A stretch of 64,000 nucleotides of DNA from Candidatus Vogelbacteria bacterium RIFOXYD1_FULL_51_18 (lineage in GTDB: Bacteria > Patescibacteriota > Minisyncoccia > Phycocordibacterales > UBA9988), in the NCBI GenBank assembly GCA_001823095.1, contig MHTL01000014.1:1881-65880 (forward strand). Direction: 5' to 3'. The first letter of the stretch is position 1. Every line of letters begins with the position of its first letter. The translations under genes were made by a program, and so were the position numbers. Shown here in pieces: positions 7,423 through 55,167 of this stretch. The notes beneath the pieces were generated by a model, which saw only the letters and a list, made by a program, of their open reading frames with translations, was not told the DNA's origin and did no database searches.

Positions 7423-7458
7423 GCCGCTAGTATAGCAGAGCCCACCATTCCCGCCGAT

Positions 7459-7494
7459 GTAATAATCCTCTCACGATCGTGGAAGGATTATTAC
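7459..7494. repeat. 36-nt near-perfect palindrome gtaataatcct-ctCACGATCGTGga-aggattattac (TCACGATCGTGA-core hairpin family), between the wHTH/Cas2-like gene and dnaE
   Basis: The reverse complement equals itself except for 2 central positions. It lies about 35 nt upstream of the dnaE ATG and 14 nt downstream of the 7508-8086 gene. Confidence 0.8.
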
Positions 7495-7507
7495 AATCCC
7501 ATTTTGT

Positions 7508-8086
7508 TTATTTTAAAGGTAGGTCAAATGCTTTGCGTAGCCATCGGTCATTCTCAATAAAATCGGCAGTGAGATAGAGCACGTCTTTACCTATGTGGAT
7601 ATGCGCTTTCAAGAGCGTCACTACTTCTTGGCATTCGTACGGGTAGACCCATACACTCCGCTGGAGCTGGATAAAACCAAGTTGTGTAAGCCAGATGCGC
7701 AACGTATCTCTAGCGCCGCGCCTGGTTTCTTTGATGTCAAAGATAATGATTCTATATTTCTTATCCCACCGACGCGGTGTGGCGAGTGTTATATGTTTAA
7801 GCCGATACTGCATAAGGAGATCCCTGCCCTTTTCTGTAAGTCTCAATACCTTTCCAACTACCGGGTCTTGCTCCTGTTTGATTAACCCTTGCCGGATACA
7901 ACGCGTGACGACTACGTTTACATAGTGACACTTCTGCCGCCTGAAGAGAGGGGTGTATTTTAAGAGGCGCATTGCATTCGGCGCAACAGCGGCAAGGGCG
8001 AGGATCCCTGTGACGGCGATAAGACCAAGCACAATGGCGCTCACATCCCCTAGCACCCCCGATTTCTCTTTTTGTTTTTTCTCCAT
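7508..8086 (-). CDS. membrane-anchored winged-helix plus Cas2-like domain protein (PaaX/Cas2-fold-like), function unknown
   Basis: N-terminal TM helix (VSAIVLGLIAVTGILALAAV) and a wHTH-like segment (RCIRQGLIKQ...LRLTEKGRDLL). The C-terminal block YRIIIFDIKETRRGARDTLRIWLTQLGFIQLQRSVWVY resembles the Cas2 core (xxVVxYDIxxxxRRxKvxKxLxxyGxRvQxSVFeC). Confidence 0.55.
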   Translation of the reverse strand: MEKKQKEKSGVLGDVSAIVLGLIAVTGILALAAVAPNAMRLLKYTPLFRRQKCHYVNVVVTRCIRQGLIKQEQDPVVGKVLRLTEKGRDLLMQYRLKHITLATPRRWDKKYRIIIFDIKETRRGARDTLRIWLTQLGFIQLQRSVWVYPYECQEVVTLLKAHIHIGKDVLYLTADFIENDRWLRKAFDLPLK

Positions 8087-8087
8087 T

Positions 8088-8123
8088 GTAATAATCTTAC
8101 CACGATCGTAAGAAGATTATTAC
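8088..8123. repeat. 36-nt near-perfect palindrome gtaataatctt-acCACGATCGTaag-aagattattac, 1 nt upstream of the 7508-8086 gene start codon
   Basis: Same arms as the 7459-7494 copy (c/t difference) and the same CACGATCGT core; the two copies bracket one gene. Confidence 0.8.
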
Positions 8124-8205
8124 ACTGTACAAAATTATATAAGAGTGATATTCTATAGAAAACCCTAGCGTAGCTGGGATGATCTTTGTAAAACGAGGTG
8201 TTGAT

Positions 8206-8434: not shown

Positions 8435-9046
8435 ATGGCACGGACACGTTGGGTGGTGGGGGTGGACGAGGCGGGACGGGGGCCGCTTGCCGGGCCGGTA
8501 TCGGTTGCGGCGCTTGCCTTCCCCGAGCCGCTCTATGCAAAACGTGCGGGTATTCTCCACGGCATCCGCGACTCAAAAAAACTCACCGAGCTCGGCCGCG
8601 AGCGCTGGTATACAAAGCTCTCTGCGCAGGCAAAAGCGGGGAACATCAAATTTGCCTCTAGTATGGTCTCTCACAGCGTCATTGACCGCCGAGGGATTAG
8701 CAAGGCAACCGCGCTCGGCGTTGCGCGGACGCTCATAAAGCTTGATTTACATCCTGCCACAACCCGCGTGCTCCTTGACGGCTCACTTGCCGCACCGGCT
8801 CTGTGGCGCAATCAGAAGACTATCGTGAGAGGCGATGATCGGGTGGCAATCATTGCGGCGGCATCAGTAATTGCCAAAGTGCGCCGCGACCGGCGCATGA
8901 AGCGTCTCTCACTGCGTTATCCAGATTACGGCTTTGCCGTCCACAAGGGCTACGGCACGGCGAGCCACTACCGTATGCTCAAAAAGCGCGGTCTCTCTCT
9001 TATCCACCGCAGGAGCTTTTGCAAAAAATTGTTCCCTATGGTATAA
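8435..9046 (+). CDS. rnhB: ribonuclease HII
   Basis: VVGVDEAGRGPLAGPV and the DSKKL motif typical of RNase HII; start chosen at MARTRW. Confidence 0.9.
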   Translation: MARTRWVVGVDEAGRGPLAGPVSVAALAFPEPLYAKRAGILHGIRDSKKLTELGRERWYTKLSAQAKAGNIKFASSMVSHSVIDRRGISKATALGVARTLIKLDLHPATTRVLLDGSLAAPALWRNQKTIVRGDDRVAIIAAASVIAKVRRDRRMKRLSLRYPDYGFAVHKGYGTASHYRMLKKRGLSLIHRRSFCKKLFPMV

Positions 9047-24043: not shown

Positions 24044-24049
24044 TGAAAA

Positions 24050-24085
24050 GACACCGAGTGTTTAGGTGCCCCAACACTCGGTGTC
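24050..24085 (+). terminator. hairpin terminator after rpoC (13-bp stem gacaccgagtgtt / aacactcggtgtc)
   Basis: Begins 7 nt after the rpoC stop; member of the ACACCGAGTGT stem family. Confidence 0.6.
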
Positions 24086-24098
24086 TCTCATTATACAT

Positions 24099-27441: not shown

Positions 27442-27475
27442 GTACTAATTTATTCACGATCGTGAATAAATTAGT
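27442..27475. repeat. 34-nt perfect palindrome tactaatttatTCACGATCGTGAataaattagta (TCACGATCGTGA-core hairpin family)
   Basis: Exact self-complementarity; lies about 100 nt upstream of the start of the minus-strand gene at 27341. Confidence 0.8.
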
Positions 27476-27836
27476 ATGTTTGTGGGTGATAAAGAACCCC
27501 GTCTAATCTGCTAAAGCAGACGGACGGGGCGAGATGTTAGGTTACTCGAAGTGACTGGAGTCCGACTTCAGTCAATCAGAGCGGTACTTTTTGGCCGGTG
27601 GCCGATGAGCATCTTGCTCTTGGTAATATATGCGCTTGCAGAGGGCGCATGAGTTGATTTCGTTCATGAGCGCTCTCCGTTTGTCAAAATCCACTTCTCC
27701 TGCGGCAAGTTGCTTGATGACTTCTCTTTTTATACATCGATGCACCGTGCTCTGTGTGTTAGATATAGCCGGCACGCTGTCCACCTCCCTTCTTTTTTTA
27801 ATGTAGCACAGAGAAGCTCTGTGGTAAAATAAAAAC

Positions 27837-35112: not shown

Positions 35113-35115
35113 AAC

Positions 35116-35143
35116 AAAAAATCCCCTGAGTGGGGGATTTTTT
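35116..35143. terminator. bidirectional rho-independent terminator between convergent eno and the RRM gene
   Basis: aaaaaatcccc-tgagt-ggggatttttt: GC stem flanked by A-run and T-run. Confidence 0.8.
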
Positions 35144-35153
35144 GTTCGGTGAA

Positions 35154-36371: not shown

Positions 36372-36423
36372 TCAAAAAAAAGCTCGTCCGCATCCCGACA
36401 CAAATGTGTCGGGATGCGGACGA
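36372..36423 (-). terminator. rho-independent terminator for the minus-strand beta-helix gene (21-bp perfect stem followed by T8 on the minus strand)
   Basis: gctcgtccgcatcccgacaca-aa-tgtgtcgggatgcggacgagc, preceded on the plus strand by aaaaaaaa. Confidence 0.7.
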
Positions 36424-36447
36424 GCCCACTACTATCTACTCCCTAAG

Positions 36448-37986: not shown

Positions 37987-38661
37987 CTAACTCAAATCTT
38001 TCTTCCTTTCCTCAAATTCTTTTTTATCAATCTCACCTTTAGCATACCGTTTCTGCAAAATTTCAAGCGCGGATTTTTCGTGATTGTGCGTGCCGCGCGA
38101 TTGATTCGTAAGCCATTTGATAAGCGCGACAATACCCGCGATTATCAATACCCACCAGAGGATCATAAAAATCCAGCCGAACGAGCCAAAAGGCCCAGAT
38201 CCAAAATTCATCATACTCCCTCCCCACATCATATTCATCATCGGCATCCAGCCGCCGCTTATGGCCGGAAATGATGCTGATGTATCGCAACCAGAAAGAC
38301 GTTTACCCATGACGATGTGAATCTGCTCTTCGCCGTCTTCGCCATGCGCCTGAATCATCATGGCGTTCATGGCGGCATGGGACTCTCCAGCCATTTGTCC
38401 CATAAAATACTCGCCGAGAACTCCAAACTGCTCATCGCTTAAATTCTCGCAAGCGATTTCTTTTGCTTGCAGTGTATCCCAAAGCCCTTTGCCTTCCTGT
38501 TCTTCACGGGCGGTATGTTCAACGACCTCGTTCCAATCAACTGTCGTATTGGAGAGATTACCCATCCCTTCAACACCGTTCAGGACAGGCATTTGAGCAT
38601 CTACCGAACCGTCAACAAGTATTGACCCAAAAATGAAAGCCGTGATTAAAAGTTTTTTCAT
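37987..38661 (-). CDS. secreted/membrane Met-rich protein with C-terminal SHOCT domain
   Basis: Signal peptide MKKLLITAFIFGSILV, a Met-rich segment GGWMPMMNMMWGGSMMNFG, a TM helix, and a C-terminal LEILQKRYAKGEIDKKEFEERKKDL SHOCT-like motif. Confidence 0.6.
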   Translation of the reverse strand: MKKLLITAFIFGSILVDGSVDAQMPVLNGVEGMGNLSNTTVDWNEVVEHTAREEQEGKGLWDTLQAKEIACENLSDEQFGVLGEYFMGQMAGESHAAMNAMMIQAHGEDGEEQIHIVMGKRLSGCDTSASFPAISGGWMPMMNMMWGGSMMNFGSGPFGSFGWIFMILWWVLIIAGIVALIKWLTNQSRGTHNHEKSALEILQKRYAKGEIDKKEFEERKKDLS

Positions 38662-38683
38662 ACAGTCGTATTTTAGCTTATTC

Positions 38684-39067
38684 TTATTGTTTAGAAAAGA
38701 CGAAATACGAAAGATACCCAAGGAGTCCGAGTTGAATCGTAGGCGTTAAGCCGACGGAGAGAATTGGGATTATGGGCATATACTCATTATACGCCCATCT
38801 TCCCGTGTTGAGAGCGTACAATTCAATACATATCGAAATCAAGACGCCAATCGGAATAATGAGCCAGCTTCTTTTTCTGAGACTGGCGACCAGTACAAAG
38901 GGTAGAGTCAATAGGATAATAATAATCGCATCAGCGATAGAAGCTCGCAACAGAATAGTCTCGGTTATCTCTCCGCCCATATAAACGATATAAAAATAGG
39001 AATGTAAATTTTCCCAAATTAGATTAAGAAAAAATGACAAAATAAAAATTAAAGATACTTTTTTCAT
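38684..39067 (-). CDS. hypothetical multi-TM membrane protein (very AT-rich gene)
   Basis: Four predicted hydrophobic helices; composition is markedly AT-richer than the backbone. Confidence 0.5.
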   Translation of the reverse strand: MKKVSLIFILSFFLNLIWENLHSYFYIVYMGGEITETILLRASIADAIIIILLTLPFVLVASLRKRSWLIIPIGVLISICIELYALNTGRWAYNEYMPIIPILSVGLTPTIQLGLLGYLSYFVFSKQ

Positions 39068-39201
39068 ACTGTTTATTTTTCCGCATGAGCGGTATGCTCC
39101 TTAAAACGTTTCCTAAGATCGGTGGTTGATCCAAAATAAAGTTGCGAATCTTTTTTACTTTTCAAAATACATGTGTAGTTCATAGAATTTGGTGTGGGGG
39201 T

Positions 39202-40104
39202 TTATTTTTGTTCCCAGGGACTATTCAAAGACTCTTCTCCAATCTTCCACACGCCCTTTTCCAAGAAAGCCTCGATGGTCTGGCGGGTGGCCTTGTTGAT
39301 AAGATTTGAGTGAGAAAATTTGTTGCTCTTTGCATAGTCGGAAAGCAGAACAATCTTTTTGCTCTCTAAATATGCCAAACGCTTGTGATAACTATTGGTA
39401 AGAGCCTTACCAATAATCTCTTCCATAATTTCGGTTGCCCCCTTTTCATCAAACTCCCTGAAAGCGTCGTAGTATTTCTTCTGGTCGATAAACTTGATGT
39501 TTATCGGCACAAAGCCTTCCCGTATGAGGAGATAGTTGTTGATGACGCGCCCAATGCGGCCATTCCCGTCCATGAATGGGTGGAGATATTCAAACGCCAG
39601 ATGAAGCCGCGCGATGCGCTTGATGATATTTTCATGACTTGTCGCATTGTATTCCGCAAACATCTTCTCAAGACTCCCGTTGATTTCTTTTGGAGCAGGA
39701 GCAATATAACTGCCGACACGAACATACTCGTCATCCTTGCGAAATCGTCCGGCAACTTCATCACGAATATTTGACAGGAGCATCTTGTGGAGTGACAAGA
39801 TAACCTCAAAGCCGAGCTCCTGCTCTTTAGCCCGCTTGTTTATGTACGACACGACTCGGGCAAGATTTTTTGCTTCGAATATTTCTCGTTCAGAAATATA
39901 CCGGTCCAGATCAATCTGGAGAAGTATCTTTTCCGTTTCCTCAAGAGAGAGAGTACTGTTCTCGATAGCGTTTGAGTTGTATACCTGATCTGCGATTTCC
40001 GCTTCGCTTATAAGCTTAATAAGCGCATCTTTTCCGATGGCCGCTTTGTAATACCTTTCCCTAAACAGATTGATTTTATTAAGTGCTCTAGCTGTTTTCG
40101 CCAT
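39202..40104 (-). CDS. Fic/DOC-family protein (putative AMPylase)
   Basis: Canonical Fic motif HPFMDGNGRIGR. Confidence 0.9.
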   Translation of the reverse strand: MAKTARALNKINLFRERYYKAAIGKDALIKLISEAEIADQVYNSNAIENSTLSLEETEKILLQIDLDRYISEREIFEAKNLARVVSYINKRAKEQELGFEVILSLHKMLLSNIRDEVAGRFRKDDEYVRVGSYIAPAPKEINGSLEKMFAEYNATSHENIIKRIARLHLAFEYLHPFMDGNGRIGRVINNYLLIREGFVPINIKFIDQKKYYDAFREFDEKGATEIMEEIIGKALTNSYHKRLAYLESKKIVLLSDYAKSNKFSHSNLINKATRQTIEAFLEKGVWKIGEESLNSPWEQK

Positions 40105-40121
40105 ACGGATTAAGTATAGTC

Positions 40122-40157
40122 TTTTTCACGACTTTGTCAACTCTAATCGTGAAAAAC
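40122..40157. repeat. split variant of the TCACGA/TCGTGA hairpin: tttttcacga-[16 nt]-tcgtgaaaaa, 18 nt upstream of the Fic start
   Basis: 10-nt perfect inverted arms containing the TCACGA half-sites, separated by ctttgtcaactctaa; a further TTTCACGATTTTG half-site lies at about 40177. Confidence 0.5.
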
Positions 40158-40582
40158 TCTCTTTTTTCTTATACTTTCACGATTTTGGACATATAGCCCC
40201 TCTGCCTTTCAGCAGTATAACAAAAAGTGTCTCATATTGGCTCCGGAGTTAAAACCTTCACAAACCCCGAAGGAAAAACAAGTTCCCTACGAGGCATGCT
40301 TTTGAAATTATTCTGCCAAATCTGATACACAAATCCAAAAAGCAAAATCTGAAGTGATGCGCCCCGCCACTATTTTTCTGGGACAAAGGAGGCGGGGCTG
40401 GGCGACCTGTCCGCCGTAGCTTTAGCAAAGGCGGAGCGAACCCTCTCGTCTTCAAAATCCGAGTTCGTATCTAGTTTATTGGCTCCCACTACTGAACGAG
40501 TTTAGAACAATAGATTGGAAGGGTATAAAGCAAGAACTTGAGCTTAGCGGTATTATGACGCTACTGGGCCAGAGAGGTTTTG

Positions 40583-41026
40583 TTAGCGTCTAACCTTATC
40601 GGTTTCAAGATGGTTTTCTGTTATGGCCACAACATAGAAAGTTCGTTCTGGCTCAATATCAAAATAGAATATCCGTGCTCTTTGTTGTAGTTTTATTTCC
40701 TTGAGTTCAATGCCTTCAGCAATGCCCCTGTATAGCTTTTTGTATTCGCTATCGTATCTCATAGGTATTCGGTCCACATAGTTTCTTTGAAAATCGGCCT
40801 CGGGGCGGATTTTTGTTCCTATGGTTTTGAGAGTTTCTATGGCCCTTTTTGCTTTGTTGCCGCCGAGCTCTGAAATCTCGCACATTCTTTCGTTGTATTT
40901 TGCAAAAGAGATTACATAAGGAATTGCCTCAGGTGCTTCTGTGTCCTGAGGCAATTCTTGAGCGATTTGAGAAAGTTTGTCTATTTCATCACTTGGCTCT
41001 GTGGCTTGTTTTGGAATGTCGGTCAT
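40583..41026 (-). CDS. uncharacterised 147-aa protein, candidate toxin partner of the Panacea-domain antitoxin (weak RelE/HigB-like C-terminus)
   Basis: ATGA overlap with the upstream Panacea gene. C-terminal YRGIAEGIELKEIKLQQRARIFYFDIEPERTFYVVAITENH resembles the RelE/ParE/HigB (Gp49-like) beta-strand core; acidic N-terminal 50 aa. Confidence 0.5.
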   Translation of the reverse strand: MTDIPKQATEPSDEIDKLSQIAQELPQDTEAPEAIPYVISFAKYNERMCEISELGGNKAKRAIETLKTIGTKIRPEADFQRNYVDRIPMRYDSEYKKLYRGIAEGIELKEIKLQQRARIFYFDIEPERTFYVVAITENHLETDKVRR

Positions 41027-41526
41027 TTGTGCTTCTTGGCCTCTTCCAATTTTTCAGAGTAGTAATTTTTCATTGATTCAAGGGATATTTCGTTTTCTGA
41101 GTTTTCATAATGCTGAAGGCCCTTTCGTGCTTCTCGCCACGGCTCTTCTGAGTGCGTGAGCATTTCCAAATAACCAGCATCAAGTTTTCCGTATGCGTTC
41201 CATACGGTATCAATAAGTTCTTTTGACTTGCCCGAAATGTTAAGCGTGTCTGATTTTATCTCTTCCTGTATCGGTTCAAATCCGAACTTTTTATATAGCA
41301 CATACAAACTGCGAACTGCTGGCCCGTGCACCCACGCTTCAATCGGCTCACTGAAGAGTTTTTTGTTATTCAATACCAAAGACCAGGCCTGTGCGTAATA
41401 GACCAGTTTTTGGAGTTTTTTATTCGTTATCGGCTCTTTTTCTTGGCTGGCGAGATATAAGAAATATCGGCCTACATCCCGTGCCTTTAAGGTTTTTTGA
41501 GAGTGTAAGGCCATAGGTATTTTCAT
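41023..41526 (-). CDS. Panacea-domain (DUF4065, SocA/PanA-like) antitoxin
   Basis: NKKLQKLVYYAQAWSLVLNNKKLFSEPIEAWVHGPAVRSLYVLY matches the Panacea core, and the N-terminal DVGRYFLYL matches the family leader. Confidence 0.75.
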   Translation of the reverse strand: MKIPMALHSQKTLKARDVGRYFLYLASQEKEPITNKKLQKLVYYAQAWSLVLNNKKLFSEPIEAWVHGPAVRSLYVLYKKFGFEPIQEEIKSDTLNISGKSKELIDTVWNAYGKLDAGYLEMLTHSEEPWREARKGLQHYENSENEISLESMKNYYSEKLEEAKKHK

Positions 41527-41537
41527 AGTAGCAATTC

Positions 41538-41555
41538 TGTAAACAGTTGTAAACA
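41538..41555 (-). promoter_or_regulatory. direct-repeat operator-like element TGTTTACA-ac-TGTTTACA (minus-strand sense) upstream of the Panacea gene
   Basis: Two 8-mers at 10-bp spacing, 12 nt upstream of the proposed ATG, in an AT-rich 110-bp gap after abiEii. Confidence 0.4.
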
Positions 41556-41638
41556 GACAGGAAGATGTTGATATTTCTGGCCGAGCGTGTAAACTAAAGT
41601 AAAGTATGAAAGAAGTAATGATGGATAGACTCATAATT

Positions 41639-42931
41639 TTATTTTAACAAGTCATCAAAGTCGTGTCTGATTAGATCTTCTTTCCGAAGAACGATCTGTT
41701 CCTTCTGATTCAGGTTGTCAGCGGATACACGGATAAGTTTTGTCATCAGGGTGTCACCAACAAGTTCATAGTTAATTTTCTTCAAATAGGCCTCGATTTT
41801 TTCGTAAAATAGAGAGGCGTATTCTTTCTGCTTTTTCTCTGATGTCGGTCTACTGCTAGAACCATTTGCTGAAAACTCGATGCTGTCACTCACTACGTTG
41901 TTGATTGGAAACGAAACCTCGATGTCTTTGAAAAGAAACCAGTACTCGCTCAAGTTATATATAATGCGCACGTGGTCGCCCTCTTTCGTGCTGTACTCAA
42001 AAATGAAAGAGAACACATCAGTCCGGAAGTCCTCGAACACTCGCACTCTTTCGTATTTTGATACGGTTCTGATTTTATATTTATCGCGTAGCTGAAAGAA
42101 AGTGTCGCGCCAGTTCGCAAGCCAGTTAGTGACGAAACGAGGGTCAAGAAAGAGCGGTGAGAGGTCATTTTTGAGATTTTCTTCGCTTACGTTGTTCATT
42201 TTTACCGCAAGTTTTGTGAACAGTGTCCGATAATCTTTTGCTTCTTCCACATTCTTTGCTTTGAGATAGTCAAGGTCGGGTACGATTTTCTTACTCATGT
42301 ACCAAAGTAAATCGTAGATGTCGCGCCCTTTTTCTTCATACACCGCCTCGCCGACGCCACGCGTTCCGCGAAGGAAAATTGCAGCGATTTTGCTCGCCAT
42401 AAGAGAAGAGAGGTTGTATGTCCGGATTACGAATGACAACTGTCCATGATTCTGCGGTATTCTTTCCGTAACAACGCCGCCGGGCGGTGCAAACTGATTA
42501 CAATCAACTTTCACATGAATCCATTCGGAAGCGTAGCCCTCAATCAAACTGCCAGCTCGGAATTTAAGCGTTATGCCTCGATTGTTCGTGATAGAGATTT
42601 TCAAAAATTCCGCGTCAACTCCATAGACTTTTGCGAAATGCTTTTCTGCCTCTTCTTTGAATTCGTTGAGAAAGTCGCTGTCAACCTTGTGGCTTACCTC
42701 AAAATCCAAATCAACGGACATTCGGTCGAGGTCATAGCAGATGCGAAGCGCTGAGCCGCCATACATTATCCATTTGTTATATTCCGGATGATGATAAGTG
42801 AAATCGAGGACATAGAACTGCAACTCCTCTTTAAGAACGTTGAGGCGCGTCTCGGGATCGGAAATGCTAACGCCATAGGTCGAAAGGCCATCAAGTTTGC
42901 TTTTCAGGACTGTTAGTATCTGATCACTCAT
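41639..42931 (-). CDS. abiEii: AbiEii/AbiGii-family nucleotidyltransferase toxin (DUF1814)
   Basis: IMYGGSALRICYDLDRMSVDLDFEVS matches the AbiEii NTase motif (GGTAL...R.SEDLDF); 430 aa. Confidence 0.85.
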   Translation of the reverse strand: MSDQILTVLKSKLDGLSTYGVSISDPETRLNVLKEELQFYVLDFTYHHPEYNKWIMYGGSALRICYDLDRMSVDLDFEVSHKVDSDFLNEFKEEAEKHFAKVYGVDAEFLKISITNNRGITLKFRAGSLIEGYASEWIHVKVDCNQFAPPGGVVTERIPQNHGQLSFVIRTYNLSSLMASKIAAIFLRGTRGVGEAVYEEKGRDIYDLLWYMSKKIVPDLDYLKAKNVEEAKDYRTLFTKLAVKMNNVSEENLKNDLSPLFLDPRFVTNWLANWRDTFFQLRDKYKIRTVSKYERVRVFEDFRTDVFSFIFEYSTKEGDHVRIIYNLSEYWFLFKDIEVSFPINNVVSDSIEFSANGSSSRPTSEKKQKEYASLFYEKIEAYLKKINYELVGDTLMTKLIRVSADNLNQKEQIVLRKEDLIRHDFDDLLK

Positions 42932-43541
42932 GGAGATATGTTTTTACTTTTTCATAAAATTTCTTCCGCTCCTCCTCGTCCATCTCATCAATATCTATCC
43001 GCAATTCTTTTACCATCTTTGTAATATCTTCAAACCGGACGCTTCGAAACTGATGCGTTCTGAAGTACAGCAAGTCGAATAGTGCTTTTGATGGAGAAGC
43101 AATAAAAAAATCAAATTTTCCTTTCACAAGAGAGTAATCCGAAAAGAGATTCTTATTGATTGACTGGTATGAAAAAGTCCCCGCCTTCGTTTCATAATCC
43201 CGTGTGATTTTCGGTGTAACCGACGTGATAGAGCGTATCGCTTCAGTGGCGAGATTATAATACTGGAGCGCAGTCCACGAGCTTACGTAGGAAGGCGTAC
43301 GGAGAATGTTTGCAAGGTAGAAAGAATACGAGATATCGCTTTTATTATCTGCAAAAAAATCGGCGGTAATATACAAGCCATTTTTCAGCGGCAAAATCTC
43401 TTTGCGCTTCAAAAAACGGCTGATGTATGTATTTACCGTACTATTTTTCAGCCCCAACTGACTACCAAGCTGGTATACTGTACTTTTGGTGAAATGGGGC
43501 AAACTATTAAGCTGTTCCAACAGATTTTTCTTGCTTTTCAT
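42924..43541 (-). CDS. abiEi: AbiEi-family antitoxin/transcriptional regulator (wHTH N-domain)
   Basis: N-terminal wHTH (TVYQLGSQLGLKNSTVNTYISRFLKRKEILPLKNGLYI); 8-nt overlap with abiEii. Confidence 0.8.
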   Translation of the reverse strand: MKSKKNLLEQLNSLPHFTKSTVYQLGSQLGLKNSTVNTYISRFLKRKEILPLKNGLYITADFFADNKSDISYSFYLANILRTPSYVSSWTALQYYNLATEAIRSITSVTPKITRDYETKAGTFSYQSINKNLFSDYSLVKGKFDFFIASPSKALFDLLYFRTHQFRSVRFEDITKMVKELRIDIDEMDEEERKKFYEKVKTYLHE

Positions 43542-44061
43542 AACTATGACAATAGTGTATCATATATGAAATGAGCAGTCAAAAGCTCATATAGCCCGCC
43601 CCGCCTTTTTGCCACCCCATTCCAATTCAAATCCCCCCCGCGAAAAAAATAAGAATGGAGAAGGGGCAAAAGGCGAGGGCGGAACGCCGAGGCTCTGCGA
43701 GGCGTTGGGCGGAATGGTTAGAGTCACCACAGAGTCCGAGCGTACGATTCAATCAGAAGCCACCACGCACGCGGAGCGTGCGATTAGTCATCAGTCGGAT
43801 TATTGCGAAAATATGTTCGAACTTTTTCTAACAAACACAGCAAACTTAGATACCCTTCGGAATTTTTGGAACCGAGGGGCGCGCTTCGCGCGCTGTATGG
43901 AAAATCGGCGAGGAGGGCAAAGGATTTTTTCGGAGTGGCAAAAAGCGCGCTTCGCGCGCAGGTGGGGGTTCCATGATGAGTACATCATTCAAAACAAAGT
44001 TTTGCGAGCCGACGGGCGGCAATTTCAAAGCGATTGAGAGCATAGCTTTCCCTTTTTCTAT

Positions 44062-45435
44062 ATGAATAAATTCTTTCTCTACGCGCGAAAATCTACCGAC
44101 GAGCCGGACAGGCAGATTTTGTCTATCGAAGCGCAGATACACGAGTTGAAAGAATTTGCAGAGCGAGAGCATTTGGAGATCGTGGACACTTTTATCGAGT
44201 CGCAAACGGCGAAGGAGCCGGGGCGACCTATTTTTAATCAAATGCTCTCGCTTATTGAAAAAGGGAAAGCCAATGGAGTTGTGGCGTGGCACCCAGATCG
44301 TCTCGCGCGCAACAGCGTTGATGGTGGGCGTATTATCTACCTTATTGACATCGCTAAGGTGGTTGCGCTCAAATTTCCGACTTTTTGGTTTGAACCCACG
44401 CCACAAGGCAAATTTATGCTCTCAATCGCTTTCGGGCAGAGCAAATACTATGTTGATAATCTTTCAGAGAATGTGAAGCGCGGTTTGCGACAGAAAGTGC
44501 GCCGTGGCGAGCAAAGCGGACAAGCGCCGACCGGATATTTGAATGATAAAGCGAATCGTGTGATCGTACCCGATCCGGCGCGCTTTAAGTTTGTCCGCGA
44601 ATTGTTCGAAGCATACGCCACGGGTTCACATTCTCTGAAAGAAACTGGGAATTTGCTCTCTGCCCGAGGCTTGGTTAGTCGGAACGGCAATGTGCTTACC
44701 ATTTCGAATATTCAAATGATTTTGCGTAATCCGTTTTACTACGGGGCGTTTAAGTTCAATGGCGAGGAGTATCAAGGTAAGCACAAGCCAGCGATAACAA
44801 AGAAACTTTTTGATCAGTGCCAAGCGGTGATGGCGCGAAAAGCGCACCCCACTAAGCGAGGCGAGCAAAAGCATATTCTTCGCGGAGTTTTTTCGTGCGC
44901 AGAGTGCGGTTGCGGTATCACAAGCGAAGTGCAGAAAGGTCATGTGTATTATCGGTGCACGAAAAAGAAAGGTATCTGCGCACAACCCTATGTCCGCGAA
45001 GAGTTGCTCGCCTCGCAAATCACCGAGTATCTGCAAAAAGTTTCTTTGTCTTCGGCGTGGGCAAATGAGATGCTTGCTCTCTTGGAGAAGGAGCAAGCAG
45101 AAACTACCCACGCCGATGCCGATTTCGTTCAAAATCTAAAGCTCAAAATTAAGGAGTGCGAGGAGAAGCTTGACCGGCTTCTTGACGCGCATCTTGAGCA
45201 AACGCTATCGAGCGAAGAATATGTCGCCAAGAAGCGCGTTCTCCTCGACTCTAAAATTGATTTTGAGCAGAAGTTGAAGGATTTTGAGCGAAACGGCAAT
45301 CATTGGCTCGAACCGGCCCGACAATTCGTTTTAGCGGCTCAACAAGCCAAAATTATCGCTTTGCAAGAAAATCCCGTCGCGGGACGGGATTTTCTCAAAA
45401 GAATTGGCTCGAACCACGTCGACAATTCGTTTTAG
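44062..45435 (+). CDS. large serine recombinase (resolvase catalytic domain + recombinase domain + zinc ribbon); C-terminus apparently frameshifted by a 101-bp tandem duplication
   Basis: Catalytic YARKSTDEPDRQILSIEAQ (Ser nucleophile) and a zinc ribbon CAECGCG...YYRC. The alternate frame 45303-45644 re-encodes the same peptide and continues to the tRNA. Confidence 0.9.
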   Translation: MNKFFLYARKSTDEPDRQILSIEAQIHELKEFAEREHLEIVDTFIESQTAKEPGRPIFNQMLSLIEKGKANGVVAWHPDRLARNSVDGGRIIYLIDIAKVVALKFPTFWFEPTPQGKFMLSIAFGQSKYYVDNLSENVKRGLRQKVRRGEQSGQAPTGYLNDKANRVIVPDPARFKFVRELFEAYATGSHSLKETGNLLSARGLVSRNGNVLTISNIQMILRNPFYYGAFKFNGEEYQGKHKPAITKKLFDQCQAVMARKAHPTKRGEQKHILRGVFSCAECGCGITSEVQKGHVYYRCTKKKGICAQPYVREELLASQITEYLQKVSLSSAWANEMLALLEKEQAETTHADADFVQNLKLKIKECEEKLDRLLDAHLEQTLSSEEYVAKKRVLLDSKIDFEQKLKDFERNGNHWLEPARQFVLAAQQAKIIALQENPVAGRDFLKRIGSNHVDNSF

Positions 45436-45520
45436 CGGCTCAACAAGCCAAAATTATCGCTTTGCAAGAAAATCCCGTCGCGGGACGGGATTTTCTCAAA
45501 AGAATTGGCTCGAACCACGT
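45302..45520. repeat. 101-bp tandem direct repeat, 2 full copies plus a 17-nt third copy, each starting ATTGGCTCGAACC
   Basis: Units at 45302-45402 and 45403-45503 are identical apart from a 6-nt patch (ggcccg vs acgtcg); partial unit at 45504-45520. Confidence 0.9.
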
Positions 45521-45629
45521 TTTGCGCTCGCAAGCGATTTGCTTTGAACCTAAAAAGTCGTGGAAAATTCTTGCCGATTTGCCCGCCGAGGGGCGAAGCC
45601 CCGAGGCGGAGAACTCGTATCATCCTATT

Positions 45630-45705
45630 TGGCTCCGCGGCTAGGGCTCGAACCTAGGACATCCTCGTTAACAGCGAGGCGCTCTACCAACTGAGCTACC
45701 GCGGA
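45630..45705 (-). tRNA. tRNA-Asn (anticodon GTT), CCA encoded
   Basis: Reverse complement reads TCCGCGG-TA-GCTC-AGTTGGT-AGAGC-G-CCTCG-CTGTTAA-CGAGG-ATGTC-CTAGG-TTCGAGC-CCTAG-CCGCGGA-G-CCA, a clean cloverleaf. Confidence 0.85.
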
Positions 45706-45756
45706 ATATATTTTTCCGCGGTAGCTCAGTACTGAGCCCTGCCTGTCGGCAGGCAG
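45690..45756. repeat. inverted copy of the first 16 nt of tRNA-Asn (TCCGCGGTAGCTCAGT) 9 nt beyond the tRNA 5' end, followed by a ctgcctg/caggcag hairpin
   Basis: 45690-45705 (tRNA 5' end, minus) and 45715-45730 (plus) are exact reverse complements. Confidence 0.7.
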
Positions 45757-47142: not shown

Positions 47143-47682
47143 GTGAGACGGAATCTCCCGCTCTCATTCTATCGCCGTGATGCAGTCATCATAGCCGAGG
47201 AGTTGCTTGGCAAGTTTCTCGTGGGGAATCGAGGCGCGGAGAGCGCCGCGCGGCGCATTATTGATGTGGAAGTCTACGACGGGCCGGAGGACCTCGCCTC
47301 GCATGCCTCGCGCGGACGGACACCACGCACCGAGGTTATGTTCAGAAAGGGTGGCGTTTGGTACGTCTACCTGGTGTACGGGATGCACCAGCTCCTTAAT
47401 GTTGTAACTGGGCCGGAAGGTTACCCTGCCGCTATTCTCATTCGTGGCGTGGAGGGCGCAGAGGGCCCGGGGAGGGTGGGGAAGCTCTTTGGGGTGGAAA
47501 AAGCTCTCTATGGAGCTCCTGCGGCTCGCAAGAGCGGCCTCTGGGTTGAGGACCGAGGAATTGCCGTCCCCAAGGATTCCGTCACGCGCCTGCCCCGCGT
47601 GGGTGTGGCCTACGCAGGCGCATGGGCGCAGAAACCACTGCGTTTTGTCTGCTGTCGGCTGCACAAAAAAATACTACATTAA
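47143..47682 (+). CDS. mpg: DNA-3-methyladenine glycosylase (AAG/Mpg family)
   Basis: FYRRDAVIIAEELLGKFLV...RIIDVEVYDGPEDLASHASRGRTPRTEVMF...YVYLVYGMHQLLNVV is the Mpg signature. Confidence 0.85.
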   Translation: MRRNLPLSFYRRDAVIIAEELLGKFLVGNRGAESAARRIIDVEVYDGPEDLASHASRGRTPRTEVMFRKGGVWYVYLVYGMHQLLNVVTGPEGYPAAILIRGVEGAEGPGRVGKLFGVEKALYGAPAARKSGLWVEDRGIAVPKDSVTRLPRVGVAYAGAWAQKPLRFVCCRLHKKILH

Positions 47683-47736
47683 CATATTTGACAGAGAAGA
47701 GCTCTGGGACTCACTTAATTTTTTGTACAGAACAAA

Positions 47737-47778
47737 AATCATCACATCCTATCACGATCGTGATAGGATGTGATGATT
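47737..47778. repeat. 42-nt perfect palindrome aatcatcacatcctaTCACGATCGTGAtaggatgtgatgatt (TCACGATCGTGA-core hairpin family), 8 nt upstream of the pyrD-like ORF start
   Basis: Exact self-complement. Confidence 0.85.
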
Positions 47779-47785
47779 TGTAACA

Positions 47786-48862
47786 ATGCCTTTTTTATTT
47801 CCGATATGCTACACTTTTCTCGTGTTCTACCGTCATCTATTACGACCCATATTTTTTTTATTTCCTGCCGACTACATGCATACGCGCTTCCTTGTGCTGG
47901 GGAATCTGCTCGGACGTTCTCGTCTAGGAAGAACCGCGGTCTCGCTTGCCTACGGCTACCCGCACGGGGATGCGCGCGTTATTGTGGACGGACTTGCGTA
48001 TCACTCACCCGTGATGCTTTCCGCCGGCTTTGACTACAACGCGCGGATTATCTCCATCCTCCCCTCGCTCGGCTTTGGCGGGGTTGAGGTGGGCTCGGTC
48101 ACGGCCCGCGCGAGCGCGGGGAACAAAAGTCCCCAGCTTGTGCGGCTCCCGCGCTCGAAGAGCATCCTCGTCAACAAGGGACTCAAGAATGACGGCGTGG
48201 ATGCCATCATCCCGCGCATTCTTGCGGCGCGCATCCCCGATGATTTTGTCATTGGCGTAAGCGTAGCGCGCACCAATGACTCCGCCGCCGCAGACGAGAA
48301 TGAGGGGATTGCCGACTACTGCTATTCGCTTAAGGCGCTGTCAAAAGCAGGCGCGGGACGCTATTACACGCTCAATATCTCCTGCCCCAACTCGTTTACC
48401 GGTGAGCTCTTTAGCACGCCCCCAGCGCTTGACCGCCTACTCACTGTGGTGGATGTGCTCGCGCTTGCCCGGCCTCTCTACGTTAAACTCCCTATCTCAC
48501 TGCCGTGGGAGGACTTGCGCTTACTGGTTGACGTAATTCGCGCCCACAGGGTGGCAGGCGTGATTGTGGGCAACCTTCACAAAGATCATGCACTCCTCGC
48601 AGAAGGGGAACGTTCGCACGGCAGGCAGGGCGGAATCTCGGGAGCGCCGTGCCGTGAGACTTCCACTGAACTCATTAAAAAAATTCGGGCTACTGTTGCC
48701 TTCACCATTATCGGCTGCGGCGGCGTCTTTAGCCCCGAGCATGCGCGGGAAAAGCTGCGCGCCGGCGCCGACCTCATCCAGCTTATTACCGGCATGATTT
48801 ACGAGGGCCCTGGACTGATTGCAGACATTGCGCGAGATTATGCGAACAGCCCTCTTGTATAA
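47786..48862 (+). CDS. pyrD: dihydroorotate dehydrogenase-family protein (class-2-like layout, Cys at catalytic base position); start may be at 47876
   Basis: SAGFDYNA...GFGGVEVGSVT...LVNKGLKNDGVD...NISCPNS...GCGGV FMN-barrel motifs. Confidence 0.75.
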   Translation: MPFLFPICYTFLVFYRHLLRPIFFLFPADYMHTRFLVLGNLLGRSRLGRTAVSLAYGYPHGDARVIVDGLAYHSPVMLSAGFDYNARIISILPSLGFGGVEVGSVTARASAGNKSPQLVRLPRSKSILVNKGLKNDGVDAIIPRILAARIPDDFVIGVSVARTNDSAAADENEGIADYCYSLKALSKAGAGRYYTLNISCPNSFTGELFSTPPALDRLLTVVDVLALARPLYVKLPISLPWEDLRLLVDVIRAHRVAGVIVGNLHKDHALLAEGERSHGRQGGISGAPCRETSTELIKKIRATVAFTIIGCGGVFSPEHAREKLRAGADLIQLITGMIYEGPGLIADIARDYANSPLV

Positions 48863-49384: not shown

Positions 49385-50182
49385 ATGAATACAAAAGAGT
49401 TACTGATGCGGGATAAGTATCACGGGCATGCCGATGCCGGCTCTTTGGAGAATGATTTAATGCGCATCGCAGCGGGGGAGCCAATTGACTACGTCATTGG
49501 CTGGAAGCCATTTTGCGGCATAGAGGCAGACCTCTCGTTGCAGCCGCTCATCCCGCGCGAGGAGACGGAATACTGGGTGAGTGAGTGCATTCGGTTTTTG
49601 GGAAGTGAGACCCGCCGCGGCGGGTCTCACTTCCAGAATTTGCGATGCTTGGATATGTGCACCGGCTCTGGATGTATCGCTGCCGCGCTCCTTAAGGCAT
49701 TCTCATTTGCATCTTGCGATTGTGTGGATAATGACCCACAGATGCTCAAAGCTGTGTGGCTCACGATGGAGCGCAATAGCATCTCACCCGAGCGCTACCG
49801 ACTCATAGAGAGTGATATGTGGGAGCATGTTGAGGGAGTCTATGACCTTATCTGCGCAAACCCGCCCTATGTGGGAGAGCAGGAAGAAGTGGGGGAAGGT
49901 GTGCGTGAGCACGAGCCGACGCAGGCAGTATTTGCGGGGGATGCAGGACGCGCGGCGCTCTCAAAATTTTTTGAAGGATTAGAGGAGCACTTGGCAGAGG
50001 GAGGCCCGCCCGTGCCGAACGGCACGTTCGAGCGTGGACTTGCTTACTGCGAATTCAGCCCCATGCAAGAAGCATGGGTGCAAGAGCATCTCACAACTCT
50101 CGCGTGCCAGGGAAAAATCTGCAGAGACCAGTATGGGCGCGCTCGATTCCTGCGTATGGGCAAGCGCGTTTTGTACGCATAG
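49385..50182 (+). CDS. prmC: release-factor glutamine N5-methyltransferase
   Basis: SAM-binding LDMCTGSGCIA and the NPPY motif. Confidence 0.8.
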   Translation: MNTKELLMRDKYHGHADAGSLENDLMRIAAGEPIDYVIGWKPFCGIEADLSLQPLIPREETEYWVSECIRFLGSETRRGGSHFQNLRCLDMCTGSGCIAAALLKAFSFASCDCVDNDPQMLKAVWLTMERNSISPERYRLIESDMWEHVEGVYDLICANPPYVGEQEEVGEGVREHEPTQAVFAGDAGRAALSKFFEGLEEHLAEGGPPVPNGTFERGLAYCEFSPMQEAWVQEHLTTLACQGKICRDQYGRARFLRMGKRVLYA

Positions 50183-54314: not shown

Positions 54315-55167
54315 TTGACAGGTCGCCGTAACCACGGAGAAAATCTTGGTAGCTCATTTCGCGCCCGCCCTCGGGGATGACGCGGTCAATGGAGAGCCCT
54401 CTGCCCTCCCTGTGCGCGGCAATGATGACTACACGCGATTTTTTGCCTTTGTGCGTGATGGTAAAGAAGGTTCGCGGCCAGGGCTCGTAGGCGCGGATTT
54501 TTCTGAAATTTAATTCACTGTCATCCGCAAGATTAACAAAGCCGTCTTCTTTTTTTATCATTTTTGTATAGGTTGCTTTGATCTCGTCTTGCGGGGTCTC
54601 TTGTGCCGTGCCGTCTGCCACAGCAGGGAGCACGGAAGCAAGAAGTTTGCCTCCCTCATGGGCCAATTTTTCTGCCAGTTCCGGATACCACTCATCTCCG
54701 CGCAGGGGAACTTCCTTTTGCGCAATGATTGCTCCATGATCCATTTTTGCGTCTATGCGCATTACCGTCACTCCGGTGAGTGGCGCGCCGCCTAAGATGG
54801 CTCCCTCAATGGGAGTTGCGCCGCGGTAACGCGGCAGGAGCGACGGGTGAATGTTCACTGCGCCGCGCTCGGGAATGTTGAACACAGCTTCGGGAATGAT
54901 TTTCCCGTACGAGGCGACAATAAAAAGGCAGACACCGAGTGTTTGAAATTCCCGACACTCGGTGTCTGCCAAGTTCTCGGGCTGAATGAAAGGAACACCG
55001 TGCGCAAGAGCCCACTCTTTTAAAGGCGGCGGGGTGAGCTTGTGTGCTCTCCCTGCGGGCCTGTCGGGCATGGTGACAATCAGCGAGGACGGATATCCCG
55101 CCTGCACGAGCTCCTCAAGCACGAGTATGGAGAAATCATCACTACCCCAGAATGCGTAATTAATCAT
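54292..55167 (-). CDS. fmt: methionyl-tRNA formyltransferase
   Basis: VASYGKIIPEAVFNIPERGAVNIHPSLLPRYRGATPIE formyltransferase core; contains an in-frame 44-nt palindrome. Confidence 0.9.
   Translation of the reverse strand: MINYAFWGSDDFSILVLEELVQAGYPSSLIVTMPDRPAGRAHKLTPPPLKEWALAHGVPFIQPENLADTECREFQTLGVCLFIVASYGKIIPEAVFNIPERGAVNIHPSLLPRYRGATPIEGAILGGAPLTGVTVMRIDAKMDHGAIIAQKEVPLRGDEWYPELAEKLAHEGGKLLASVLPAVADGTAQETPQDEIKATYTKMIKKEDGFVNLADDSELNFRKIRAYEPWPRTFFTITHKGKKSRVVIIAAHREGRGLSIDRVIPEGGREMSYQDFLRGYGDLSIMRGKIS
54927..54970. repeat. 44-nt perfect inverted repeat ggcagacaccgagtgt-[12]-acactcggtgtctgcc inside the fmt coding sequence
   Basis: 16-bp perfect arms; encodes ADTECREFQTLGVC in frame; shares ACACCGAGTGT with the rpoC terminator stem. 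Confidence 0.85.

What the first reader, a model, noticed from the sequence alone, without database searches (positions are those of the whole stretch)
47737..47778. 42-nt perfect palindrome with the TCACGATCGTGA core between mpg and the pyrD-like gene
aatcatcacatcctaTCACGATCGTGAtaggatgtgatgatt is exactly self-complementary over 42 nt. It ends 8 nt before the ATG of the 47786 ORF. It could terminate mpg, gate pyrD, or both. It is the longest member of the family and again has unique arms around the conserved core.
Basis: seen in the sequence. Interest (0 to 1): 0.5.

Follow-up and report, generated by a model that had tools for sequence, protein, structure and literature searches.

The report
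Solo binding-site palindrome of PaaX-like protein
The palindrome is real, but it is probably not an mpg terminator: it looks like a stray copy of the roughly 38-bp DNA site that flanks, and carries the promoter of, a small PaaX-like DNA-binding protein gene in the same window, and this gene-plus-palindrome pairing recurs widely and has not, as far as I could find, been described.

Summary
The palindrome is real and slightly longer than reported: 44 nt, perfect, at 47736-47779. It belongs to a four-member family in the window, all centred on CGATCG and all intergenic.

Two members flank a 192-aa gene (7508-8086, minus strand) encoding a winged-helix plus Cas2-like protein. Its best structural match is E. 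coli PaaX.

A pattern scan of one genome for each of about 185,000 species found 70 loci, against about 9 expected (my estimate). Sites were multi-copy, with genome-specific arms. A homologue of this gene lay next to the palindrome in 12 further loci.

In 80 loci chosen only by the protein, palindromes flank the gene in about 60% of upstream and downstream windows, against 2% of controls. The upstream copy usually holds a -10 hexamer, and the ATG begins 18 nt from its centre, which implies a leaderless promoter inside an operator.

The copy studied here sits in a 136-nt insertion absent from three relatives. The insertion truncated mpg. pyrD most likely starts at GTG 47822 from its own leaderless promoter, with the palindrome centred 64.5 bp upstream.

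There is no T-run on the mpg strand and no sense-strand G·U bias, so a terminator role is poorly supported. Whether this copy regulates pyrD or is just a dispersed repeat remains open.

The parts
47736..47779 (.). Palindrome #4: 44-nt perfect palindrome centred on CGATCG. A solo copy of the family. Inner 24 bp ATCCTATCACGATCGTGATAGGAT; outer 10 nt per arm are private.
47761..47769 (+). TGATAGGAT: extended -10-like motif (TGnTAnnnT) in the right arm, facing pyrD.
   Evidence: motif scan
47746..47754 (-). The same TGATAGGAT motif on the other strand, facing back into mpg.
47650..47785 (+). 136-nt segment absent from three relatives, in which mpg and pyrD are 12 nt apart. It carries the palindrome and supplies the new last codons and stop of mpg.
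47786..47821 (+). Relic of the ancestral mpg 3' end plus the 12-nt spacer. It now reads in frame into pyrD, which is why the ORF reaches back to ATG 47786.
47807..47815 (+). TGCTACACT: extended -10 motif ending 6 nt before GTG 47822. Probable leaderless promoter of pyrD.
47822..48862 (+). pyrD (class 2 dihydroorotate dehydrogenase) from its probable start GTG 47822, which is homologous to the GTG start in relatives.
47143..47682 (+). mpg (methylpurine DNA glycosylase). Its C-terminal 11 residues differ from relatives because of the insertion.
7508..8086 (-). Gene for the 192-aa PaaX-like protein (winged helix + PaaX_M/Cas2-like domain, no C-terminal ligand domain). Presumed binder of the palindrome family.
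8087..8124 (.). Palindrome #2. It abuts the ATG of the PaaX-like gene. Its gene-facing arm reads TGGTAAGAT, 7 nt, then ATG (a leaderless promoter). The three arm mismatches remove this motif only on the side facing away from the gene.
7458..7495 (.). Palindrome #1. It starts 13 nt after the stop of the PaaX-like gene and is centred 54.5 bp upstream of the leaderless dnaE start at 7422. The site is orthologous in relative L162.
27443..27476 (.). Palindrome #3: 34-nt perfect solo copy, 13 nt upstream of the -35 of a TTGACT-17-TATACT promoter on the - strand.

Best explanation
The palindrome is a solo copy of a family of roughly 38-bp palindromic DNA sites belonging to a small PaaX-like DNA-binding protein encoded in the same window (7508-8086, minus strand). 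The protein has a winged helix plus a Cas2-like dimerisation domain and lacks the ligand domain of true PaaX.

In this protein family the gene is typically flanked by two copies of its palindrome. The upstream copy contains the gene's own -10 hexamer, and the start codon begins 18-20 nt from the palindrome centre. A dimer bound to the two outer half-sites and the central core would therefore sit on a leaderless promoter and repress its own gene (inferred).

The copy at 47736-47779 arrived inside a 136-nt insertion. That insertion cut off the last codons of mpg and broke the tight mpg-pyrD coupling seen in relatives. pyrD now most probably starts at GTG 47822 from its own leaderless extended -10 promoter (TGCTACACT), with the palindrome centred 64.5 bp upstream.

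I therefore expect it to act on double-stranded DNA. It would be a binding site for the PaaX-like dimer that could block read-through from mpg or modulate the pyrD promoter. It also carries two outward-facing promoter-like motifs that the bound protein would cover.

What is shown: the family, the gene association, the promoter geometry at the master copies, and the insertion. What is inferred: protein binding, repression, and any effect on pyrD.
For: 1. Family in the window: four CGATCG-centred zero-spacer palindromes, all intergenic.

2. Wider occurrence: the pattern ATYYWNYCACGATCGTGRNWRRAT matched 70 loci in one genome for each of about 185,000 species, against about 9 expected from its information content (my calculation). 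Sites were multi-copy per genome with genome-specific arms.

3. Gene association: the only neighbour family enriched beside those sites is the homologue of window ORF 7508-8086. It lies beside the site in 12 of those loci as well as in the window. In 8 of these 13 cases (window included) the gene has a palindrome on both sides.

4. Unbiased test: in 80 metagenome loci picked by the protein alone, a palindrome scoring at least 14 of 18 pairs is present in 44 of 76 upstream and 47 of 78 downstream windows, against 6 of 308 control windows. In 24 of the 44 upstream cases the in-frame ATG begins 17-18 nt after the centre.

5. Arm asymmetry: in 22 of those loci the gene-facing arm has a TAnnnT hexamer in 15 cases and the opposite arm in 5. 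The outer half-site (TAnnGTA) and the centre are kept on both arms.

6. Co-varying specificity: a paralogue in L007 is flanked by a different palindrome pair.

7. Protein identity: PF20803 PaaX_M, E = 1.5e-18. The AlphaFold model has pLDDT 82. Its best PDB match is E. coli PaaX 8a39, E = 5e-6 over 183 columns.

8. Operator size: the E. coli PaaX operator is TGATTC-N27-GAATCA, 39 bp, the same span as these palindromes (PMC9493321).

9. Leaderless promoters in this genome: TGnTAnnnT ends 6-7 nt before the start codon for 9 candidate starts among the 56 genes, against about 0.4 per other offset. These include dnaE, the PaaX-like gene and GTG 47822.

10. Insertion: relatives have a 12-nt mpg-pyrD spacer, and the alignment gives one 136-nt insertion in the window.
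Against: - No binding experiment exists, so the protein-site link rests on association and geometry.
- The outer 7 nt of this copy's arms (TCATCAC) differ from those of the copies flanking the gene (TGTAATA). The window's protein may therefore not recognise it well, and its cognate paralogue, if any, is not in the window.
- In other genomes nearly identical copies lie in convergent intergenic regions (14, against 6 divergent) and even in frame inside genes. This is not what a regulon looks like.
- The site is 43 bp or more upstream of the probable pyrD start, so simple promoter occlusion does not apply.
- Gene calls in the fetched loci were crude ORF calls of my own.
Confidence: 0.6

Rival explanations
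1. It is a selfish or neutral dispersed repeat. The 38-bp palindrome spreads by a copy-and-insert process, mobilised by the flanked PaaX/Cas2-like protein or by something else, and this copy is a passenger with no selected role for mpg or pyrD. This overlaps with the best explanation, because a dispersed copy can still bind the protein.
For: - One MAG (CAYIXQ) has 17 copies matching the strict pattern, most of them nearly identical over all 38 bp, with unrelated flanks. Point mutation cannot build that.
- Copies lie in frame inside secA, tgt, miaA and a ychF-like gene, encoding SLSFYHDRGKMIV.
- Convergent contexts outnumber divergent ones (14 versus 6).
- The palindrome-gene-palindrome unit is present at priA-aroA in L007 and L008 and absent, with no solo copy left, in L001 and L009.
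- Close homologues sit in different neighbourhoods.
- This copy lies in a lineage-specific 136-nt insertion.
- Many homologues are on contigs of about 700-1000 nt, as expected if assemblies break at flanking repeats.
Against: - No target-site duplication was seen and no transposase is associated.
- The window's four copies differ from one another far more than copies of a recently active element would.
- The mechanism of spread is unknown.
Confidence: 0.45
2. It acts as RNA: a 20-bp hairpin in a read-through mpg-pyrD transcript. The hairpin would terminate transcription, be cut by RNase III, or hinder ribosomes at pyrD.
For: - The fold is very stable (-41 kcal/mol for 118 nt, z = -7.4).
- It lies 54 nt after the mpg stop.
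- A relative encodes RNase III in the same neighbourhood as the window's dnaE region.
- Within one MAG lineage, several arm changes are compensated on both arms.
Against: - No T-run follows the stem on the + strand.
- Arm mismatches show no preference for G·U on the sense strand (10 versus 9).
- Member #2 precedes its gene with no gene upstream to terminate.
- Ordinary GC-rich terminators with T-runs exist elsewhere in the window, for example 35113-35146.
- If pyrD is leaderless from 47822, the hairpin is not in its mRNA.
Confidence: 0.12
3. It is itself a bidirectional promoter. The two TGATAGGAT motifs fire outward, giving a pyrD transcript with a short leader and an antisense RNA into mpg.
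For: - TGnTAnnnT is this genome's leaderless promoter signature.
- The same position in the arm is the working -10 of the PaaX-like gene at #2 and in many homologous loci.
- Copy #4 keeps the motif on both arms, whereas #1 and #3 have it on neither.
Against: - The motif ends 16 nt before ATG 47786 and 52 nt before GTG 47822, not the 6-7 nt seen for the leaderless genes in this window.
- No Shine-Dalgarno-like sequence follows.
- pyrD has a better-placed motif of its own at 47807-47815.
Confidence: 0.2

Closest known systems
E. coli PaaX repressor and its operator (TGATTC-N27-GAATCA)
   Same: - The protein shares the winged-helix plus Cas2-like dimerisation architecture. The best PDB match is PaaX 8a39, and it hits Pfam PaaX_M.
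- The site is an inverted repeat spanning about 38-39 bp.
- At the regulator's own gene the site overlaps the promoter, as PaaX does at Px (PMC9493321).
   Different: - No C-terminal phenylacetyl-CoA domain (192 aa against 305-316).
- No paa genes nearby.
- The whole 38 bp is palindromic with a conserved CGATCG centre.
- The gene is flanked on both sides by the site.
- Sites are multi-copy and dispersed, sometimes inside ORFs.
- The own-gene promoter is leaderless.
REP elements and their RAYT genes (REPINs)
   Same: - Short palindromic repeats with genome-specific sequence, many copies, mostly between genes.
- The associated single-copy gene is flanked by two copies of the repeat.
   Different: - The associated protein is PaaX/Cas2-like, not an HUH Y1 transposase.
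- There is no GTAG head.
- These are perfect zero-spacer palindromes rather than imperfect hairpins.
- The upstream copy doubles as the gene's promoter.
Rickettsia palindromic elements (RPE) and bacterial MITEs such as Correia elements
   Same: - Palindromic repeats that insert between genes and, in some genomes, in frame within conserved protein-coding genes.
- They can bring promoter-like motifs next to neighbouring genes.
   Different: - Much shorter (38 bp against about 100-150 bp).
- No terminal-repeat-plus-duplication structure was seen.
- Tightly linked to a DNA-binding protein gene.
- Found across several phyla with a shared core.
parS sites and ParB
   Same: Near-perfect palindromes with a CAC...GTG centre conserved across phyla, several copies per genome, and one next to the gene of the binding protein.
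   Different: - 38 bp rather than 16 bp, with 4 extra central bases (CACGATCGTG against CACGTG).
- The partner protein is unrelated to ParB.
- Arms are genome-specific.

Membership tests
PaaX-family regulator with its operator | Protein has an N-terminal winged helix followed by the PaaX_M (Cas2-like) dimerisation domain | tested here: met
   PF20803, E = 1.5e-18. TIGR02277 PaaX partial match covering residues 56-161. AlphaFold model pLDDT 82.3; best PDB hit 8a39 E. coli PaaX, E = 5e-6 over 183 columns; also 3l09 and 3kfw.
PaaX-family regulator with its operator | C-terminal ligand-binding domain (phenylacetyl-CoA) and linkage to paa catabolic genes | tested here: not met
   The protein is 192 aa and has no Pfam hit beyond PF20803. 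The TIGR02277 score is 31, against a cutoff of 264. Its neighbours are dnaE and RNase HII.
PaaX-family regulator with its operator | Operator made of widely spaced inverted half-sites (about 39 bp overall) that overlaps the regulated promoter | tested here: met
   The palindromes are 38 bp, with outer half-sites and centre conserved on both arms. A -10 hexamer lies in the gene-facing arm, and the ATG starts 18-20 nt from the centre. The PaaX operator span is taken from PMC9493321.
PaaX-family regulator with its operator | The protein physically binds the site | not testable with these tools
   There is only association: the homologue lies beside the site in 12 scanned loci and in the window, and palindromes flank the gene in 58-60% of windows against 2% of controls.
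Intrinsic (rho-independent) terminator | Stable stem-loop followed by a T-run on the strand of the gene that ends there | tested here: not met
   The scan finds the pattern only on the - strand. On the + strand the stem is followed by GTAACAATG.
Intrinsic (rho-independent) terminator | Family members lie at the 3' ends of transcription units | tested here: not met
   #2 lies upstream of its gene in a divergent region. Six sites are in divergent regions, and some lie inside ORFs.
REP / RAYT (REPIN) system | Short palindromic repeats, many copies per genome, mostly extragenic, with the associated gene flanked by two copies | tested here: met
REP / RAYT (REPIN) system | The associated gene is an HUH Y1 transposase (RAYT), and the repeats carry a conserved GTAG head | tested here: not met
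   The associated gene is PaaX_M/Cas2-like. No GTAG head is visible in the aligned arms.
MITE | Terminal inverted repeats bounded by a direct target-site duplication; derived from an IS with a transposase | tested here: not met
   The flanks of the copies show no direct duplication, and in several the flanks extend the palindrome instead. No transposase is among the enriched neighbours.
Rickettsia palindromic elements (works-like comparison) | Palindromic repeat inserted in frame in conserved protein genes | tested here: met
   secA, tgt, miaA and a ychF-like gene in the CAYIXQ/CAYILQ MAGs carry the 38-bp unit in frame. Tgt has about 42 extra residues there compared with a solved homologue. 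The copy in this window instead replaced the 3' end of mpg.
HIP1-type hyperabundant octamer (GCGATCGC) | Octamer over-represented throughout the genome, including coding regions | tested here: not met
   There are only 8 CGATCG sites in 64 kb, and GATC is depleted: 101 sites against about 247 expected (my calculation).

The most novel reading that the evidence does not exclude
Short PaaX-like proteins (winged helix plus Cas2-like domain, often annotated 'Cas2') and their 38-bp palindromes form a previously undescribed self-contained genetic unit, palindrome-gene-palindrome.

The unit would move, invert and seed solo copies through genomes of Patescibacteria and several other phyla. That would be a REP/RAYT-like system built on a different protein. 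The solo copies would carry portable operator and promoter modules that rewire neighbouring genes, here splitting the mpg-pyrD operon.
Probability: 0.35. Interest if true: 0.8.

Novelty: new variant of a known kind. Interest (0 to 1): 0.62.

Why it matters
Patescibacteria have very few recognisable regulators, and almost nothing is known about how they control genes such as dnaE, priA or pyrD. This analysis links a widespread, mis-annotated protein family ('Cas2', 'PaaX' or 'hypothetical') to a precise DNA site. It also gives a testable promoter-operator architecture for leaderless genes.

The same site behaves as a dispersed repeat that can land inside operons and even inside genes. If the protein mobilises or manages these repeats, this would be a second, independent example of the REP/RAYT type of host-element relationship.

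There is also a practical point. These palindromes break assemblies and mislead start-codon calls, as with ATG 47786 here.

Tried and rejected
1. RNA-level selection. I classified every arm mismatch as G·U on the sense or antisense strand of co-directional neighbours. The result was 10 versus 9, so no bias.

2. Rfam. Nothing but one tRNA at gathering threshold in the whole window.

3. Insertion as a decayed PaaX-like gene. tblastn gave KKYYINIFDREE against KKYRIIIFDIKE at 47666-47701 (E = 6.5). A profile HMM of 47 homologues scored that frame at E = 82, so I dropped the idea.

4. Shared flank TAATTTTTTGTACAG beside #2 and #4. Local alignment shows that similarity between the loci is confined to the inner 24 bp, so I treat it as chance.

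5. Fixed spacing between solo copies and downstream start codons. None was found. The apparent peak at offset 10 is the ATG inside the repeat of one MAG lineage.

6. CRISPR-array reading of the Acidobacteriota repeats. They are 43-nt tandem repeats without spacers.

7. Structure from a single sequence. pLDDT was 42.6, which is unusable, so I redid it with an alignment.

8. Profile search of PDB sequences with the 47-homologue alignment. No hits.

9. Phage origin. Only 3 matches in 2.9 million viral contigs.

10. Literature. Searches for the core sequence, for PaaX with Patescibacteria, and for palindromes with Cas2-like proteins found no description of this system.

Full report
**The observation**

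The quoted 42-mer is present at 47737-47778 and is exactly self-complementary. The perfect palindrome is 44 nt, 47736-47779, with 22-nt arms and no spacer. Chance expectation in 64 kb is about 4e-9 (my calculation).

The core TCACGATCGTGA occurs twice, against 0.02 expected. Four of the eight CGATCG sites in the window are centres of long zero-spacer palindromes:
- #1, 7458-7495
- #2, 8087-8124
- #3, 27443-27476
- #4, 47736-47779

All four lie between ORFs. Palindrome #4 is identical in four independent assemblies of the same organism, and two short contigs begin inside it. The organism is a Patescibacteria MAG labelled Candidatus Vogelbacteria.

**What the family is attached to**

#1 and #2 share the arm TGTAATAATC. 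They flank a 192-aa ORF (7508-8086, minus strand) that hits Pfam PaaX_M, the Cas2-like central domain of PaaX (E = 1.5e-18). #2 abuts its ATG, and #1 starts 13 nt after its stop.

I scanned one genome for each of about 185,000 species with a degenerate pattern derived from the window's sites. This gave 70 loci, where about 9 were expected from the pattern's information content (my calculation). Many genomes had several copies.
- Within a genome the arms are nearly identical. One MAG has 17 copies matching the pattern, most built on cACTATCATTTTACCACGA|TCGTGGTAAAATGATAGTg.
- Between genomes the outer 7 nt differ, while the inner ATTTTnYCACGA is shared. That inner consensus was partly imposed by the search pattern.
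- The genomes are mostly Patescibacteria. MAGs labelled Verrucomicrobiota, Acidobacteriota, Planctomycetota and Chloroflexota also appear.

I clustered the ORFs on either side of every site. This gave one large cluster of 14 entries, from 12 scanned loci plus the window: homologues of the window's PaaX-like protein. In 8 of these 13 cases (window included) the gene has a palindrome on both sides.

**An unbiased test**

Those loci were chosen by the palindrome, so I fetched 80 metagenome loci chosen only by the protein.
- A palindrome with at least 14 of 18 complementary pairs is present in 44 of 76 upstream windows and 47 of 78 downstream windows. Only 6 of 308 control windows in the same loci have one.
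- The centres vary (CGA|TCG, CTA|TAG, CGG|CCG), so the CACGATCGTG type is one subfamily.
- In 24 of the 44 upstream cases the in-frame ATG begins 17-18 nt after the palindrome centre.
- In 22 such loci the gene-facing arm reads TnGnnTAnAAnTAnnGTATGG: a -10-like hexamer at positions 6-11, six bases, then ATG.
- TAnnnT is present in 15 of 22 gene-facing arms but only 5 of 22 opposite arms. Positions 12-18 (TAnnGTA) and the centre are kept on both arms.

This is the signature of a symmetric protein-binding site laid over an asymmetric leaderless promoter.

A paralogue in relative L007 is flanked by two copies of a different palindrome, so site and protein change together.

**The protein**

With 47 homologues as the alignment, the AlphaFold model reaches pLDDT 82.3. 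Its best PDB match is E. coli PaaX (8a39, E = 5e-6, 183 aligned columns). Other PaaX-like structures follow, along with separate MarR-type winged-helix and Cas2 hits. The protein lacks the PaaX C-terminal ligand domain. Public records call it Cas2, PaaX or hypothetical.

According to PMC9493321 the E. coli PaaX operator is TGATTC-N27-GAATCA. That is 39 bp, the same span as these 38-bp palindromes.

**Promoters in this genome**

TGnTAnnnT ends 6 or 7 nt before the start codon for 9 candidate starts among the window's 56 genes, against about 0.4 per other offset. These include:
- dnaE (TGCTATACT, 6 nt, ATG 7422)
- the PaaX-like gene (TGGTAAGAT, 7 nt, ATG 8086; the motif lies inside #2)
- GTG 47822 (TGCTACACT)

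The three mismatches in #2 remove the motif only on the side facing away from the gene. #1 and #3 have no such motif. #4 has it on both arms (TGATAGGAT).

**The local history of #4**

In three relatives with about 70% identical PyrD, mpg and pyrD are 12 nt apart. There pyrD starts at a GTG followed by VFYRY....

MAFFT places a single 136-nt insertion in the window, 47650-47785. The insertion carries the palindrome. It replaces the last codons of mpg, which now ends CCRLHKKILH* instead of VDPSLFI*.

The old mpg end and the 12-nt spacer survive at 47786-47821. They read in frame into pyrD, which explains why the ORF extends back to ATG 47786. The start homologous to the relatives' start is GTG 47822, and it has acquired a well-placed leaderless promoter motif.

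Measured from the probable start sites, the palindrome centres fall at:
- -64.5 for #4 (pyrD)
- -54.5 for #1 (dnaE)
- about -65.5 for #3 (the promoter of a 69-aa ORF)

These positions come and my own arithmetic. The remaining 92 nt of the insertion match nothing I hold. A hint of a decayed PaaX-like gene within it did not survive a profile test.

**Terminator and RNA readings**

- The hairpin is stable, as any palindrome must be.
- No T-run follows it on the mpg strand.
- #2 has no gene to terminate.
- Across 80 sites, arm mismatches show no preference for G·U on the sense strand (10 versus 9).
- If pyrD is leaderless from 47822, the hairpin is not part of its mRNA.

An effect on read-through mpg transcripts, such as RNase III cleavage, cannot be excluded.

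**Regulon or dispersed repeat?**

Several results do not fit an ordinary regulon:
- Copies nearly identical over 38 bp, with unrelated flanks, in single genomes.
- More sites in convergent than in divergent intergenic regions (14 versus 6, using my crude ORF calls).
- Copies in frame within secA, tgt, miaA and a ychF-like gene in two related MAGs, encoding SLSFYHDRGKMIV. Tgt carries about 42 extra residues at that place compared with a solved homologue.
- The whole palindrome-gene-palindrome unit is present at priA-aroA in L007 and L008 and absent without trace in L001 and L009.
- A 65% identical homologue sits next to alaS instead of dnaE.
- In relative L162 both palindromes lie between dnaE and rnhB as in the window, and the flank on the dnaE side is conserved, but the gene between the palindromes is inverted. 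That is what exchange between two palindromes would produce.

No target-site duplication or transposase was seen. In several copies, including #4, the palindrome extends beyond the usual 19-nt arm into private sequence. Template switching at a hairpin during replication would do this, but that is my inference and is untested.

**Verdict**

#4 is a solo member of a palindrome family that serves as the binding site, and at the master copy as the promoter-operator, of a short PaaX-like protein.
- The association, the geometry and the insertion are shown.
- Binding and any regulatory effect on pyrD are inferred.
- The terminator reading is poorly supported.

I found no description of this protein-palindrome unit in the searchable literature. 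I rate it a new variant of known kinds: a PaaX-type operator with REP-like dispersal.

Noticed in passing
window 2960, 7422, 8086, 11645, 15382, 27837, 33835, 41634, 47822: Leaderless-type promoters are common. TGnTAnnnT ends 6-7 nt before the start codon for 9 candidate starts among the 56 genes, with a sharp peak over a flat background.
   Followed up: yes
L049:1742, L062:4976, L067:6147, L064:3992, L042:6198: In two related MAGs the 38-bp palindrome lies in frame inside secA (both MAGs, same position), tgt, miaA and a ychF-like gene. It adds the peptide SLSFYHDRGKMIV, which is reminiscent of Rickettsia palindromic elements.
   Followed up: partly
L162:5925-6706 versus window 7422-8330: The PaaX-like gene between dnaE and rnhB is inverted in a relative, while both flanking palindromes stay in place. 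This suggests inversion by exchange between the palindromes.
   Followed up: partly
L023, L034, L041, L043, L073, L074, L075 (one Acidobacteriota MAG): At least 7 copies of a roughly 250-nt repeat carry three TTTTCCACGATCGTGGAAAAAT sites, two of them 31 bp apart. In the two copies examined (L041, L073) about eight 43-nt tandem repeats follow, each with its own inverted repeat. This is not a CRISPR array, and its nature is unknown.
   Followed up: partly
window 38000-45705: A low-GC block (0.41-0.49 against about 0.55) ends with a large serine recombinase ORF (44062-45435) next to tRNA-Asn (45630-45705). An inverted copy of the tRNA 5' end lies at 45714-45730. An imperfect 30-nt palindrome occurs twice (45366-45395 and 45467-45496). 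This is probably an integrated element.
   Followed up: no
window 49601-49634: A 34-nt perfect palindrome (ggaagtgagacccgccg|cggcgggtctcacttcc) lies inside the methyltransferase-like ORF 49385-50182. It is unrelated to the CGATCG family and is also present in L001.
   Followed up: no
window 24049-24086, 54927-54970; L007 about 8660-8680: This is a second hairpin family, built on GACACCGAGTGT / ACACTCGGTGTC. Its members are probably terminators sharing a stem sequence, and it also occurs in a relative.
   Followed up: no
window 36382-36425: A 21-nt-arm perfect inverted repeat, GCTCGTCCGCATCCCGACACA, with a 2-nt spacer. It is GC-rich and unexplained.
   Followed up: no
whole window: GATC is depleted: 101 sites against about 247 expected from base composition (my calculation). 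A relative (L008:3144-4576) encodes an N6/N4 methyltransferase next to a MutH-family nuclease.
   Followed up: no
homologue list (P0126, P0136, P0138, P0141, P0142, P0144 and others): Many homologues of the PaaX-like protein are known only from contigs of about 660-1000 nt. That is roughly the size of one palindrome-gene-palindrome unit, as if assemblies break at the flanking repeats.
   Followed up: no
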